A DNA stretch of 32,000 nucleotides from Corynebacterium amycolatum (GCF_049243625.1 NZ_CP046975.1), one strand, 5' to 3'; positions 2,449-16,049 are shown, counted from the first letter of the stretch. Made by a program: numbers and translations. The notes: a model not told the origin generated them from the letters alone.

Positions 2449-3507
2449 ATGACTACATCTGGAGCTTCTGAATCATCCCGCGAAATCGATCTCGAACAGT
2501 TTGGATTTCCTCTCCCGATTCGTCGCCCACGCAGGCTGCGCACCAACCCGGTGATGCGTGCGATGACGGCAGAGACGACACTGACTCCGAAGAATCTCAT
2601 CCTTCCCATGTTTGTTGCAGATGGGATTGATGAGCCGAAGCCAATCAGCTCCCTGCCCGGGGTAGTGCAGCACACCGAAGACTCCCTGGTGGAAGCTGTG
2701 CGCGAGGCTGTTGAGGCAGGTATCTCGGCGGTTGACCTCTTCGGTGTCCCGCTCGATGCGGATAAGGACGGCGAGGGCTCTGAATCCTGGAATCCGGAGG
2801 GCGTTCTCAACCGCGCTCTGCGTCGTCTCCGCGACGAGTTCGGGAATGACATTCTGATTATGGCCGACACCTGTCTGGATGAGTTCACTGACCACGGCCA
2901 CTGTGGCGTACTGGGCACGGATCGCTTCGGCAACACGGTCGTTGAGAATGACCGCACGCTGATTAACTACGTCAAGATGGCCGTTGCCCAAGCCGACGCC
3001 GGTGCACATATCGTGTCCCCGTCGGGCATGATGGACGGCCAGATTGCCGCTATTCGTGAGGGGCTGGACGCCGCTGGCCATGAGGATGTCTCCATCATGG
3101 CGTACTCGGCAAAGTACGCCTCCGCCTTCTACGGTCCATTCCGTGAAGCCGTGGGCAGCTCGCTACAGGGCGATCGCCGTACCTACCAGCAGGATCCTGC
3201 AAACCGTCGTGAGTCCCTGCTCGAAGTGCAGCTCGACGTTGACGAGGGTGCGGACATGGTGATGGTCAAGCCGGCCATGAGCTACCTGGACATCCTGCGC
3301 GAGGTCGCAGACATCTCGCCGGTGCCGGTTGCTGCCTACCAGGTCTCTGGTGAGTACGCGATGATTCACGCCGCTGCCGCCAACGGGTGGATTGACCTGG
3401 ATGCTGCGATGATGGAAGCAGTGCTGAGCATTCGCCGTGCCGGTGCGGAGCAGATTTTGACCTACGCAGCGGTGGACTTGGCGAAGAAGCTGCGCGCCCA
3501 GTTCTAA
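2449..3507 (+). CDS. hemB: Porphobilinogen synthase (delta-aminolevulinic acid dehydratase)
   Basis: RRPRRLR near the N-terminus, the metal-site segment DTCLDEFTDHGHCG, the active-site region MVKPA, and YQVSGEYAM. I prefer the ATG at 2449 over the track's TTG at 2431. Confidence 0.92.
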   Translation: MTTSGASESSREIDLEQFGFPLPIRRPRRLRTNPVMRAMTAETTLTPKNLILPMFVADGIDEPKPISSLPGVVQHTEDSLVEAVREAVEAGISAVDLFGVPLDADKDGEGSESWNPEGVLNRALRRLRDEFGNDILIMADTCLDEFTDHGHCGVLGTDRFGNTVVENDRTLINYVKMAVAQADAGAHIVSPSGMMDGQIAAIREGLDAAGHEDVSIMAYSAKYASAFYGPFREAVGSSLQGDRRTYQQDPANRRESLLEVQLDVDEGADMVMVKPAMSYLDILREVADISPVPVAAYQVSGEYAMIHAAAANGWIDLDAAMMEAVLSIRRAGAEQILTYAAVDLAKKLRAQF

Positions 3508-13802: not shown

Positions 13803-14795
13803 ATGCGTGTTCTCGTCACCGGTGGTGCCGGCTTTATTGGTTCCAACTTTGTCCTCCGTACTCTGGCCACGCGGCCGGATGTGAATGTCACGGTGCTGGA
13901 CGCTTTCACCTATGCCGCGAACCCTGCGAGCTTGGAAGGCGCGGACTGTGAAATCATCCGCGGCGATGTTCGTGACGCGGAGCTGATCGATCGCCTCGTG
14001 CCCCGCTTCGACGCCGTCGTCCACTTCGCCGCCGAGAGCCATAACGACAACTCGCTAGTGGATGCCGATCCCTTCGTCACCACCAACGTCATGGGCACTG
14101 TGAATCTGGCGAAGGCCTGCGCCACCCACGATGTTCGCCTCCACCACATCTCCACAGACGAGGTCTTTGGCGATCTCGCTCTCGACGACCCAGCACGCTT
14201 TACGACGGCCACCTCGTACAAACCCTCCAGCCCCTATTCGGCCTCCAAGGCGTCTGCGGACCACTTTGTCCGGGCTTGGGTACGTAGCTTTGGACTGGCT
14301 GCGACTATTAGTAACTGCTCGAATAATTACGGCCCGCGGCAGCATCCGGAGAAACTGATTCCTCGGCAGATTTGTGGTCTGCTGCGCGGTCGTAGCCCTC
14401 GCGTGTACGGCACCGGCGAGAATATTCGGGACTGGATTCACGTCGATGACCACAACGATGCGGTCTGGACAATCCTGGATTTCGGCGAGGTGGGGGAGAC
14501 CTACCTCATCGGTGCCGATGGTGAGCGTTCCAACCTCGACGTGGTCGGAGACATCCTGGAGGGATTCGGGCGTGAGCGATCCGATTTCGTTCATGTCACT
14601 GACCGCCCGGGGCATGACCGTCGTTATGCGATTGATCCTGCATCCATCCGCAGCCTTGGCTGGCAGCCGCGCTACCAAGACTTTTCCGCAGGCCTCGCCG
14701 AGACCATCGACTGGTATCGCGCCAACGAGTCCTGGTGGGCTGCGGCCTATGATGCCGCTGAGGCTGGCTACGCTGAGCGCGAGCAGGAGTTGTAG
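13803..14795 (+). CDS. rmlB: dTDP-glucose 4,6-dehydratase
   Basis: MRVLVTGGAGFIGSNF Rossmann motif, the catalytic YSASKASADHFVRAW (YxxxK), and SNNYGPRQHPEKLIP, typical of RmlB. Confidence 0.92.
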   Translation: MRVLVTGGAGFIGSNFVLRTLATRPDVNVTVLDAFTYAANPASLEGADCEIIRGDVRDAELIDRLVPRFDAVVHFAAESHNDNSLVDADPFVTTNVMGTVNLAKACATHDVRLHHISTDEVFGDLALDDPARFTTATSYKPSSPYSASKASADHFVRAWVRSFGLAATISNCSNNYGPRQHPEKLIPRQICGLLRGRSPRVYGTGENIRDWIHVDDHNDAVWTILDFGEVGETYLIGADGERSNLDVVGDILEGFGRERSDFVHVTDRPGHDRRYAIDPASIRSLGWQPRYQDFSAGLAETIDWYRANESWWAAAYDAAEAGYAEREQEL

Positions 14796-14801
14796 TTCTG
14801 A

Positions 14802-14846
14802 TTGGGCTGGTTTGGGTTGGTTGGGTTGGTTTGGGTTGGTTGGGCT
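14802..14846. repeat. G/T-rich microsatellite-like tandem repeat (alternating 9- and 10-bp units: TTGGGYTGG / TTTGGGTTGG)
   Basis: Read directly: ttgggctgg tttgggttgg ttgggttgg tttgggttgg ttgggct. It starts 7 bp after the rmlB stop. Confidence 0.9.
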
Positions 14847-14857
14847 CTGCCTAGCCA

Positions 14858-14893
14858 GCACCCCGGTTACTTGGTGCACCCCGGTTACTTGGT
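14858..14893. repeat. Perfect 18-bp tandem duplication (gcaccccggttacttggt x2)
   Basis: 14858-14875 and 14876-14893 are identical. Confidence 0.95.
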
Positions 14894-14977
14894 ACGCCCC
14901 ATGCGTCACTTCAGCCACGCCTGCAATATAGTTCCCATGCGCACCAGGTAAAGGGCTCAAAACAGGCCCAAAATACC

Positions 14978-15067
14978 CAGACTCGCATGTTTGGTGGCAT
15001 TTTCGGGCTTTTGGGTGAATCTGACCTGGGAGTTTCTAATCTGAAGCCCACCAAACATGCGAGTCTG
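14978..15067. repeat. Hairpin A: 20-bp perfect inverted repeat with a 50-nt loop
   Basis: cagactcgcatgtttggtgg (14978-14997) is the exact reverse complement of ccaccaaacatgcgagtctg (15048-15067). Confidence 0.95.
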
Positions 15068-15150
15068 CGTCAAAACACCCCTTGTGAATGTCGTTAAACG
15101 TTGTTTTCGTATTCAGGATTAACAAATAAGCCTCAAATTCGGGCCATTTT

Positions 15151-15246
15151 CCCTAAGGTCTCGACTTGTGTGGGCTTCAGATTAGAAACTCCCAGGTCAA
15201 GAAGTGTGGATTCACTTAAAAGGGCACACAAATCGAGACCTTAGGG
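15151..15246. repeat. Hairpin C: 22-bp inverted repeat (21/22) with a 52-nt loop
   Basis: ccctaaggtctcgacttgtgtg (15151-15172) against cacacaaatcgagaccttaggg (15225-15246), with one C/A mismatch. Confidence 0.95.
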
Positions 15247-15359
15247 CAACAACCCCCGCATGAATGCCGTTAAGCGCTAATTTCGGCTCGGCGACTACCC
15301 AGCTCACACCCAACCCACCACCAGCCCGAACCCGTCCCTCGCGTCTACACTTGTTACCC

Positions 15360-16049
15360 ATGAGCCCTGAGAGCACATTCCAGCCCACTTCCATCGACGG
15401 CGTTTTCACCTTCGAGCCGGTCATCCACGGCGACAGCCGCGGTAGTTTCCACGAGTGGTATCGCCTCGACGCATTCGCCGAGGCCACGGGCTACCCGTTC
15501 TTTCCGGAGCAGGCCAACATGAGTGTCTCCGCGGCGGGCGTTGTCCGTGGCCTTCACTTCGCCGACGTCAGCACCGCGCCAGATGGTCATCCCGGCCAGG
15601 CGAAGCTGGTCACCTGTCCCGCGGGCCATATCCTCGACATCGCGGTTGACCTGCGTCGCGGCTCTGACGCATTCGGCAAGGTTGAGGTCTTCGAGCTCGA
15701 CAGCAAGACCCGCCGAGTGGTCTATCTGCCCAACGGCATCGGACATGGTTTCGTCTCGCTTGCCGACGACTCCGTGCTCACCTACCTCACTTCCACCGGC
15801 TACAATCCGGAGGCTGAACGCGCTGTTAGCATCCAGGACCCGACGCTGGGAATCGACTTGGCCGCGTTGCTGGCCAAGGGTGGTCTCACCGAAGCGGACA
15901 TGATTCTCTCCGAGCGCGATCAGAAGGCCCCGACGATCGAGCAGTTCGAGGCGCAGGGCAATAAGCTCCCCAGTGAGTTTGACTGCAAGGACCTCGAAAA
16001 CATGGCTCGCGACGAGTGGGCAATCGCCAACGAAGCGGCCGGGCAGTAA
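15360..16049 (+). CDS. rmlC: dTDP-4-dehydrorhamnose 3,5-epimerase with a C-terminal extension of about 45 aa
   Basis: [38 protein letters not shown] and [10 protein letters not shown] are RmlC cupin motifs. I prefer the ATG at 15360. The track start at 15264 adds 32 aa that read through the repeat region. Confidence 0.85.

What the first reader, a model, noticed from the sequence alone, without database searches (positions are those of the whole stretch)
14951..15290. Two tandem ~176-bp units, each a long hairpin, with the same 30-nt core in their loops in opposite orientation
Two long hairpins lie side by side.
- Hairpin A: 14978-14997 pairs 20/20 with 15048-15067, with a 50-nt loop.
- Hairpin C: 15151-15172 pairs 21/22 with 15225-15246, with a 52-nt loop.

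The sequences flanking the hairpins are diverged direct repeats with a 176-bp period.
- gggctcaaaacaggcccaaaataccc at 14953 matches agcctcaaattcgggccattttccc at 15129.
- tgaatgtcgttaaacgttgttttcg at 15085 matches tgaatgccgttaagcgctaatttcg at 15261 (20/25).

The loop content is nevertheless inverted: 15022-15051 (tgacctgggagtttctaatctgaagcccac) is the exact 30/30 reverse complement of 15170-15199. A perfectly conserved 30-mer inside units whose flanks have drifted suggests selection on the core.

The geometry allows three readings:
1. In an rmlB-rmlC read-through RNA, two stem-loops with fully complementary loops. These could form a kissing complex, or a 30-bp long-range duplex that competes with both local hairpins.
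2. DNA inversion of the loop segment across the stem inverted repeats, captured in both states by a duplication.
3. A MITE/REP-like hairpin element.

I do not recognise it as any known ncRNA family.
Basis: seen in the sequence. Interest (0 to 1): 0.62.

Follow-up and report, generated by a model that had tools for sequence, protein, structure and literature searches.

The report
Two palindromic repeat elements, opposite loops
The two side-by-side hairpins between rmlB and rmlC are two copies of a hairpin-shaped intergenic repeat family scattered through Corynebacterium genomes, so they look like selfish or structural repeat DNA of the REP/MITE kind rather than a dedicated RNA switch, although the family itself seems not to have been described.

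Summary
Both long hairpins, the exact 30/30 inverted core and the 176-bp direct repeat of the flanks are real and far beyond chance.

They are not specific to the rml genes. The genome, Corynebacterium amycolatum-like, has a third copy elsewhere. Related species carry 2 to 9 copies at unrelated intergenic sites. C. lactis-like relatives have an empty 40-63-nt rmlB-rmlC spacer. C. amycolatum SK46 lacks exactly unit 2, a 176-bp gap with break points in the repeated 25-mer.

A covariance model and the loop motif GACCTGGGNTTTT tie the units to a genus-wide hairpin family:
- The motif occurs in 230 of 320 Corynebacterium genomes, up to 56 copies per genome.
- In some species it forms tandem arrays with an 83-85-bp period.
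- There is no Rfam match.
- No Y1 transposase (RAYT), parent IS or target-site duplication was found.
- The elements show no orientation bias relative to genes.
- G·T and A·C stem mismatches are about equal, so nothing shows RNA-level selection.
- A small ORF through the core is not conserved.

Best reading: two adjacent members of a REP/MITE-like palindromic repeat family. Their loop flipped relative to the flanks at some point in evolution. Orientation is fixed in all 8 assemblies seen, so I see no active switch.

The scan had noted this spacer before as a possible insertion.

The parts
14947..15109 (+). Unit 1: one copy of the palindromic repeat element (stem type S1), with the core reading forward on the + strand
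   Evidence: R1 covariance-model hit at G000:C1:344968-345081 (+), 116.5 bits. It is 84% identical to the third copy at G000:C1:2304077-2304216. Its limits come from the alignment with that copy.
14975..14997 (.). Hairpin A, 5' arm
   Evidence: Inverted repeat I3, 23 nt, 96% complementary to 15048-15070.
15048..15070 (.). Hairpin A, 3' arm
   Evidence: I3. As RNA the hairpin folds at -51.6 kcal/mol.
15022..15051 (+). 30-nt core in loop A (TGACCTGGGAGTTTCTAATCTGAAGCCCAC). It contains the family-wide motif GACCTGGG.
   Evidence: Exact inverted repeat I1. It differs at 0 to 3 positions in all 17 copies found in 7 genomes.
15085..15109 (+). 25-mer flank motif M, copy 1 (TGAATGTCGTTAAACGTTGTTTTCG)
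   Evidence: 20/25 identical to 15261-15285. In the genomes searched M occurs only next to these hairpins. It holds the left break point of the SK46 deletion.
15118..15285 (-). Unit 2: second copy (stem type S2), with the core reading forward on the - strand
   Evidence: R1 hit at G000:C1:345140-345253 (-), 115 bits. Solo S2 copies exist at other loci in G058. Its limits come from the alignment with those copies.
15148..15177 (.). Hairpin C, 5' arm
   Evidence: Inverted repeat I2, 30 nt, 87% complementary to 15220-15249.
15220..15249 (.). Hairpin C, 3' arm
   Evidence: I2.
15170..15199 (-). 30-nt core in loop C, the reverse complement of 15022-15051
   Evidence: I1.
15261..15285 (+). 25-mer flank motif M, copy 2
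15102..15277 (.). The 176-bp segment (one repeat period) that is missing in C. amycolatum SK46 / G403
   Evidence: Alignment of the rmlB-rmlC spacers of five assemblies.
14796..15359 (.). The whole rmlB-rmlC spacer. It is an insertion-rich stretch that C. lactis-like relatives lack (their spacer is 40-63 nt).

Best explanation
**What it is.** The two units are two neighbouring members, with stem types S1 and S2, of a Corynebacterium-specific family of non-coding, hairpin-shaped intergenic repeat elements. In the C. amycolatum clade each element is an extended imperfect palindrome of about 165-175 bp:
- an outer 25-mer (M), which in the fullest copy is present as an inverted repeat;
- a 20-23-bp near-perfect stem;
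- an asymmetric loop of about 50 nt that carries the family motif GACCTGGG(N)TTT. In this subfamily the motif is widened to a 30-mer.

**Shown.**
- The family is dispersed, intergenic and variable in copy number.
- Copies are gained and lost between close relatives.

**Inferred.**
- The elements behave as DNA-level repeats of the REP/MITE kind, selfish or structural.
- They spread and are reshuffled by recombination. Stems and loops are exchanged as modules between copies. Recombination across the palindromic arms, within or between copies, can set the loop in either orientation relative to the flanks.
- The direct 25-mers then allow unequal recombination, as in the 176-bp loss in SK46.
- In a read-through rmlB-rmlC transcript the pair would form hairpins or a duplex of about 45 bp. 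I take this as a by-product, not the reason the elements exist.
- The agent that copies the elements, and the reason the loop motif is kept, are unknown.
For: **Dispersal**
- A third copy lies between a fadB-like gene and an unrelated gene.
- 17 distinct copies in 7 of 320 genomes of the genus were found by BLAST.
- The 26-nt degenerate core pattern (CTGGGAGTTTNTNATNTGNAGCCCAC) occurs only in C. amycolatum, C. lactis, a '1285_CVIT' strain and two MAGs among 185,579 species genomes.
- The covariance model R1 finds more diverged members: G058 about 7, G483 about 9, G441 at least 7, G482 about 5, G675 about 4.

**Gain and loss**
- The rmlB-rmlC spacer is empty in G482 and G483.
- Unit 2 is absent in SK46.
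- The pair at G640 contig C30 is absent from the same site in G000.
- One locus, downstream of fadB, holds S1 in G000, S2 in G058 and S3 in G483.

**Unit limits**
- The G441 copies share only the 105-nt hairpin; their flanks are unrelated.

**Genus-wide motif**
- GACCTGGGNTTTT occurs in 230 of 320 genomes, against about 0 for the reversed control, with up to 56 copies and tandem arrays.
- 70 of 107 motif sites lie in the loop of an inverted repeat, against 0 of 107 after shuffling, and with the same geometry.
- Other genera have 0-3 sites per genome, occasionally up to 8.

**Modular exchange**
- S1 stems occur with two loop types.
- G441 has copies with hybrid arms.
- At an orthologous locus one species has the 30-mer type loop and the other the general type.

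**Not an RNA gene or a protein gene**
- No Rfam hit.
- 36 G·T against 29 A·C stem mismatches.
- No orientation bias relative to genes.
- No promoter or terminator on the + strand of the spacer; one promoter-like site on the minus strand.
- The ORF is broken in two copies and lies in a different frame in another subfamily (and my own reading of the G441 copies).
Against: - No mobilising enzyme was found. There is no Y1_Tnp/RAYT in 10 genomes, no PF05635, no parent IS sharing the ends and no target-site duplication.
- The core is identical in copies whose stems differ by about 40%. That could instead mean strong purifying selection on a functional RNA or a protein-binding site.
- Within the amycolatum-type subset, G·T exceeds A·C 19 to 7, and the core-forward strand folds 5-15 kcal/mol better in 16 of 18 copies. 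This is a weak hint of a strand-specific single-stranded form.
- All four pairs seen are in opposite orientation.
- The link between the window's elements and the array-type units rests on a 13-17-nt motif and the shared geometry. Model R1 does not score the arrays.
Confidence: 0.6

Rival explanations
1. A family of structured small RNAs or cis-acting RNA modules. Each hairpin would be transcribed on the core-forward strand, u1 from the + strand and u2 from the - strand, so that they converge. The conserved loop would be a seed or a protein-binding platform, or an intrinsic-terminator-like module formed by an inner hairpin ending in CCUGGG followed by a U-run.
For: - Stem P1 shows double changes in 16 of 30 predicted pairs.
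- The core-forward strand folds better in 16 of 18 copies.
- G·T exceeds A·C 19 to 7 in the amycolatum-type subset.
- The invariant small helix GUUUC/GAAGC contains a U·G pair.
- About half of the family's units have an inner hairpin CCGGGU...ACCUGGGG followed by UUUU.
- The same 13-mer forms plain terminators next to tRNA genes in G000.
Against: - There is no asymmetry over the whole family (36 G·T against 29 A·C).
- No conserved promoter lies inside the repeated unit. The G441 unit is the bare hairpin.
- Orientation relative to the upstream gene is about 11 same and 8 opposite.
- Old copies decay in stem and motif alike.
- The two substitutions seen in the small helix are not compensated.
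- No Rfam match.
- Palindromic DNA gives the same 'covariation' without any RNA.
Confidence: 0.17
2. A classical non-autonomous transposon (MITE), or a REPIN-like element, moved by an enzyme encoded elsewhere or now lost. The stem arms or the 25-mer would serve as terminal inverted repeats.
For: - Small, non-coding, bounded by inverted repeats, dispersed and intergenic, with near-identical copies within a genome such as G441.
- The 25-mer forms inverted repeats around the third copy.
- Copies are rare in divergent promoter spacers, about 1 in 30.
Against: - No target-site duplication.
- No longer element with the same ends.
- No Y1 transposase.
- The conserved part is the loop, not the ends. 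That is the reverse of what a transposase that binds terminal repeats would leave.
Confidence: 0.15
3. An active invertible DNA switch. The loop would flip between the stem inverted repeats, and the two units would show the two states.
For: - The flanks are direct while the loops are inverted.
- 20-30-bp inverted repeats bracket a 42-50-bp segment.
- S1 copies exist in both loop-versus-flank states at different loci.
Against: - Loop orientation is the same at each orthologous locus in all assemblies: 7 with the pair, and SK46/G403 with unit 1 alone.
- The stem sequences differ between copies, so no common recombinase site exists.
- No recombinase gene lies among the neighbours.
- The segment is very short for known invertases (my own knowledge).
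Confidence: 0.03
4. A docking site for a DNA-binding protein, for example a nucleoid, gyrase or FtsK/TraB-type motor protein. The protein would recognise GACCTGGG in an extruded hairpin, and the arrays in other species would be multi-site platforms.
For: - The loop motif is conserved across subfamilies with unrelated stems.
- Some species carry tandem arrays of units.
- From memory, the 8-mer resembles the GACCCGGA sites recognised by TraB of Streptomyces plasmids.
Against: - No protein partner is identified.
- G000 has only three copies.
- The resemblance is recalled from memory, not tested.
- The motif decays in old copies.
Confidence: 0.05

Closest known systems
REP / BIME / REPIN elements of proteobacteria (repetitive extragenic palindromes, moved by RAYT transposases)
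   Same: - Short, non-coding, hairpin-forming repeats confined to intergenic DNA.
- Found as singles, as pairs in inverted orientation and as clusters.
- Copy number varies between species.
- Lie in 3' regions and between convergent genes.
   Different: - No RAYT (Y1_Tnp) gene in any of 10 carrier genomes.
- No conserved GTAG tag.
- The stems are 20-29 bp with a 45-50-nt loop, so much larger.
- The conserved part is in the loop while the stem sequence is free.
- G000 has only 3 copies.
Bacterial MITEs such as Correia elements (Neisseria), ERIC/IRU (enterobacteria) and RUP (Streptococcus pneumoniae)
   Same: - 100-175-bp imperfect palindromes, non-coding and dispersed in intergenic DNA.
- Present or absent between close relatives.
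- Able to form long RNA hairpins when co-transcribed.
   Different: - No target-site duplication found.
- No parent IS with matching ends.
- The ends vary between subfamilies while the centre is conserved.
MIRU-type intergenic minisatellites of Mycobacterium
   Same: - Related host group (Mycobacteriales).
- In some Corynebacterium species the same motif-bearing unit forms head-to-tail arrays of 5-11 units (72-85 bp) at many intergenic loci.
   Different: - As I recall, MIRUs are not hairpins with a conserved loop, and they are oriented with the operon.
- The window's two units are single copies with opposite loops, not an array.
Hairpin origins recognised by HUH nucleases (nonanucleotide loop of CRESS-DNA viruses, double-strand origins of rolling-circle plasmids)
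   Same: The logic is the same: a free stem sequence combined with a conserved loop sequence.
   Different: - The loop here is about five times longer.
- The elements are chromosomal and there is no Rep gene nearby.
- This is an analogy only and was not tested.

Membership tests
REP/REPIN-RAYT system | A RAYT (Y1 transposase, PF01797) gene in the genome | tested here: not met
   0 of 10 carrier genomes, including G000 and the high-copy genomes G534, G658 and G524. The control genomes gave hits.
REP/REPIN-RAYT system | Short intergenic palindromes, often as inverted pairs | tested here: met
   All copies are intergenic. Four pairs were seen, all inverted.
REP/REPIN-RAYT system | Conserved stem sequence with a 5' GTAG tag | tested here: not met
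   The stems differ between subfamilies and none carries a shared GTAG.
MITE | Terminal inverted repeats, under about 300 bp, non-coding | tested here: met
   Arms of 20-29 bp and units of 100-175 bp. The ORF is not conserved.
MITE | Target-site duplication at the insertion | tested here: not met
   None at seven G441 copies nor at the filled-versus-empty site of G640 and G000. Few clean empty sites were available.
MITE | An autonomous IS with the same ends | tested here: not met
   In G000 and G441 the arms and the 25-mer occur only at the hairpins. Plasmid and phage collections gave no match.
Invertible DNA switch (inverton) | Both orientations at one locus | tested here: not met
   One orientation per orthologous locus in all assemblies.
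Invertible DNA switch (inverton) | A site-specific recombinase nearby | tested here: not met
   The neighbours are ResB, CcsA, RmlB, RmlC, RmlA and a hydrolase. At the third copy they are a FadB-like protein and a protein with a weak AbiEi_4 match.
Any Rfam RNA family | Covariance-model match | tested here: not met
   Only chance microRNA-precursor hits far below their gathering scores.
Intrinsic terminator | GC-rich stem with a short loop followed by a T-run | tested here: not met
   None found in 14700-15450. An inner terminator-like hairpin exists in about half of the family units in other species.
Hairpin cassettes enclosing a PF05635 gene (lead from earlier notes of this scan) | A PF05635 gene in the carrier genomes | tested here: not met
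   0 of 5 genomes.

The most novel reading that the evidence does not exclude
The Corynebacterium hairpin family (free stem, fixed loop motif GACCTGGGNTTTT, singles, inverted pairs and 83-85-bp arrays) could be a new kind of self-propagating or host-used single-strand element. It would be recognised through its loop by an enzyme or protein not yet identified. That could be a RAYT-independent counterpart of REPINs, or a family of small terminator-bearing RNA modules. The exactly conserved 30-mer of the amycolatum subfamily would then be the functional recognition site.
Probability: 0.15. Interest if true: 0.7.

Novelty: new variant of a known kind. Interest (0 to 1): 0.4.

Why it matters
For the rml genes the finding matters little. 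The pair is an insertion that sister lineages do without.

The wider result is of moderate interest. Corynebacterium, including clinically relevant skin species, carries an apparently undescribed family of hairpin repeats in most genomes. In some species the units form many tandem arrays, and none of the known mobilising enzymes is present.

Possible uses and consequences:
- Such repeats are useful strain-typing markers. The spacer also holds a variable 18-bp repeat.
- They are hot spots for deletion and rearrangement, as the 176-bp loss shows.
- They can alter mRNA stability or operon coupling.

If the loop motif proves to be a recognition site, it would point to a new way of propagating repeats in Actinobacteria.

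Tried and rejected
1. **Known ncRNA.** Three Rfam scans at permissive thresholds gave nothing.
2. **Small protein.** An ORF reading DLGVSNLKPT runs through the core in most copies. It has a stop in unit 1 of G058 and a frameshift in the G403 third copy. Third codon positions do not vary. By my own reading of the G441 copies, the shared motif lies in another frame there. Rejected.
3. **Strand-specific RNA inferred from wobble pairs.** An early signal did not hold over 34 members.
4. **Simple opposite-orientation insertion of a fully symmetric element.** I favoured this at first. The flanks match only in direct orientation, so a flip of the loop relative to the flanks is needed.
5. **REPIN/RAYT system.** No Y1 transposase.
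6. **PF05635 hairpin cassettes,** a lead from earlier notes of this scan. Absent.
7. **Parent IS, plasmid or phage source.** None found.
8. **A gene flanked by inverted units in G534.** The second site was a chance motif inside a membrane-protein ORF.
9. **Terminator function inferred from orientation.** No bias.
10. **Literature.** Four searches found no description of the family, and the stem-loop survey PMC2267715 gives only counts for C. diphtheriae.
12. **Model R1 on array units.** No hits. A structure-aware model of the wider family was not built because MAFFT could not align arms of different length.

Full report

Yes. The repeat finder reports three features in the spacer:
- Hairpin A has arms at 14975-14997 and 15048-15070 (23 nt, 96% complementary, 50 nt apart).
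- Hairpin C has arms at 15148-15177 and 15220-15249 (30 nt, 87% complementary, 42 nt apart).
- 15022-15051 and 15170-15199 are an exact 30-nt inverted repeat.

The flanks are similar in direct orientation. The right-hand 25-mers (15085 and 15261) match 20/25, with z = 6.7 against shuffles. The left flanks match with z = 4.3. In inverted orientation the flanks do not match, with z = -0.8 and 1.7. A stricter local test had found only the right flank significant.

The neighbours are RmlB (13803-14795), RmlC (15360-16049) and RmlA.

**2. The units are not specific to this locus.**

- The window is G000:C1:330001-362000 of a complete 2.47-Mb genome.
- A third copy lies at 2304077-2304216. It is 84% identical to unit 1, with the same stem, and sits between a FadB-like gene and an unrelated gene.
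- BLAST over 320 genomes of the genus finds the elements in 7 of them, with 2-3 copies each.
- A sample of 400 genomes from the family adds nothing outside the genus.
- A 26-nt degenerate core pattern scanned over 185,579 species genomes occurs only in C. amycolatum SK46, C. lactis, strain 1285_CVIT and two Corynebacterium MAGs. It occurs in no viral contig.

**3. Anatomy of the copies.**

With the core in one orientation, the copies line up as: 5' arm, a T-run, about 17 variable bases, the 30-mer, 3' arm. There are three stem types:
- S1: AGACTCGCATGTTTGGTG
- S2: TAAGGTCTCGATTTGTGTG
- S3: TCAATTCTCAATTTGTGTGG

The stems differ at about 40% of positions, yet each pairs almost perfectly with its own partner arm.

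**4. Gain and loss.**

- C. lactis-like genomes G482 and G483 have only 40-63 nt between rmlB and rmlC. Their elements lie elsewhere, for example between the hydrolase gene and menA.
- SK46 and G403 lack exactly window 15102-15277 (176 bp). The break points lie inside the two direct 25-mers. The more distant G058 has both units, so this is most simply a deletion by unequal recombination.
- G640 carries a further pair at a site that is empty in G000. The difference is about 370 bp and there is no clean duplication.
- The spacer downstream of fadB holds an S1 element in G000, an S2 element in G058 and an S3 element in G483.

**5. A wider family.**

A covariance model built from 15 copies (R1) finds only the three copies in G000. 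In other species it finds diverged members: G058 about 7, G483 about 9, G482 about 5, G441 at least 7, G675 about 4, and the G640 pair. These share the architecture and a loop motif, (C/T)GACCTGGG(N)TTTTGC.

At an orthologous locus, G483 has the 30-mer type loop and G482 the general type, with homologous stems. The 30-mer is therefore a derived form of the general loop.

The G441 copies share only the 105-nt hairpin, and their flanks are unrelated.

The 13-mer GACCTGGGNTTTT behaves as follows:
- It occurs in 230 of 320 Corynebacterium genomes, against almost none for the reversed control. About 19 genomes have 10 or more copies, and the maximum is 56.
- In G534, G658 and G414 it marks tandem arrays of 5-11 units with a period of 83-85 bp (or 72 bp), at many loci.
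- In those genomes 70 of 107 sites lie in the loop of an inverted repeat, against 0 of 107 after shuffling. The geometry matches the window's elements.
- Other genera of the family have 0-3 sites per genome, occasionally up to 8.

One caution applies here. R1 does not score the array units, so that link rests on the motif and the geometry alone.

**6. RNA, protein or DNA?**

*Against a known RNA.* There is no Rfam match.

*For an RNA.*
- The stems covary.
- The core-forward strand folds better in 16 of 18 copies.
- The amycolatum-type subset has 19 G·T against 7 A·C mismatches.

*Against an RNA.*
- A DNA palindrome gives the same covariation.
- Over 34 members the mismatch count is 36 G·T against 29 A·C.
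- The repeated unit holds no conserved promoter.
- Orientation relative to the upstream gene is about even.
- Old orthologous copies decay in stem and motif alike.

*Against a protein.*
- An ORF through the core is open in most copies.
- It has a stop in one copy, a frameshift in another and no third-position variation.
- By my own reading of the G441 copies, the shared motif falls in a different frame there.

About half of the family units have an inner hairpin ending in CCUGGGG followed by a U-run, like a terminator. The same 13-mer forms plain terminators next to tRNA genes in G000. The window's spacer has no terminator-like site.

**7. Why direct flanks with an inverted loop?**

In the genomes searched, the 25-mer M occurs only beside these hairpins. 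At the third copy it stands on both sides as an inverted repeat, with z = 3.7. The full element is thus an extended palindrome of about 170 bp.

Simple insertion in the opposite orientation is not enough, because unit 1 and unit 2 flanks match only directly.

S1-stem copies occur in both loop-versus-flank states: unit 1 and the third copy in one state, G640_C30b and G058_C15b in the other. S1 stems also occur with two different loop types. G441 has copies whose two arms come from different subfamilies.

I infer that stems and loops are exchanged by recombination between copies. I also infer that recombination across the palindromic arms has flipped the loop at least once.

Nothing suggests an active switch:
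- Each orthologous locus has the same orientation in every assembly.
- The stems share no common site.
- No recombinase gene is nearby.

**8. The RNA reading.**

A 361-nt read-through RNA is predicted to prefer the long loop-loop duplex. The duplex alone is -75.7 kcal/mol, the hairpins are -51.6 and -42.8, and the whole fold is -130 kcal/mol with z = -5.4. This follows from having two inverted copies and is not evidence of function. SK46 does without unit 2.

**9. Comparison with known classes.**

It works like REP/BIME and MITE elements: intergenic, palindromic, dispersed, paired or clustered. It fails their defining tests:
- No RAYT in 10 genomes.
- No GTAG tag.
- No target duplication.
- No parent IS.
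- No plasmid or phage source.
- A lead from earlier notes, hairpin cassettes around a PF05635 gene, was tested and is absent.

The unusual trait is that the loop is conserved while the stems are free. I found no paper on the family in four searches.

**10. Verdict.**

The MITE/REP-like reading is the right one in kind. Inversion is plausible only as history. The RNA kissing idea is unsupported.
- The specific finding is ordinary. The family behind it seems undescribed and is moderately interesting.
The mobilising agent and the role of the loop motif remain unknown.

Noticed in passing
window 14858-14893: The 18-bp unit GCACCCCGGTTACTTGGT varies in copy number: 1 copy in SK46/G403, 2 in G000, 3 in G640 and G679. 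The GT-rich 9/10-bp array at 14799-14846 also varies in length between these genomes.
   Followed up: partly
window 14815-14854 and 15295-15319: GT-rich and CA-rich stretches form an imperfect inverted repeat that brackets the whole insertion-rich spacer (I5 and I6).
   Followed up: no
L002 about 1715-1760 (G000:C1 about 2304290-2304335): Two DnaA-box-like 9-mers (TTATCCACA and CTATCCACA) lie about 20 bp apart just downstream of the third copy. They are conserved in G058 and upstream of a 430-aa gene with a weak AbiEi_4 match.
   Followed up: no
L149-L163 (G534, G658, G414): Many intergenic tandem arrays of 5-11 hairpin units (72 bp or 83-85 bp). Each unit carries CGACCTGGGGTTTTGC in its loop, and there are at least 10 arrays per genome. 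They look like an undescribed minisatellite class in some Corynebacterium species.
   Followed up: partly
L164 about 2896-2982 and L165 about 2949-3035 (G441): Hybrid hairpins whose two arms come from different subfamilies (4-6 mismatches between the arms). One has the loop in the opposite orientation. This is evidence of recombination between copies.
   Followed up: partly
G000:C1:601410 and 2038940: The same 13-mer, GACCTGGGNTTTT, forms the 3' half of plain intrinsic terminators next to tRNA genes. This hints that the family's loop motif may derive from a terminator.
   Followed up: partly
window 14952-14925 (minus strand): The only promoter-like site in the spacer (TTTACC, 16 nt, TATATT) points towards rmlB on the antisense strand, just left of unit 1.
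   Followed up: no
L101 1401-1470 (G058 contig C15): Three tandem copies of a unit of about 21 bp (GGGCGATCCGTGCTCGGTTGC) lie directly upstream of another inverted pair of elements. Short tandem repeats seem to gather next to these hairpins.
   Followed up: no
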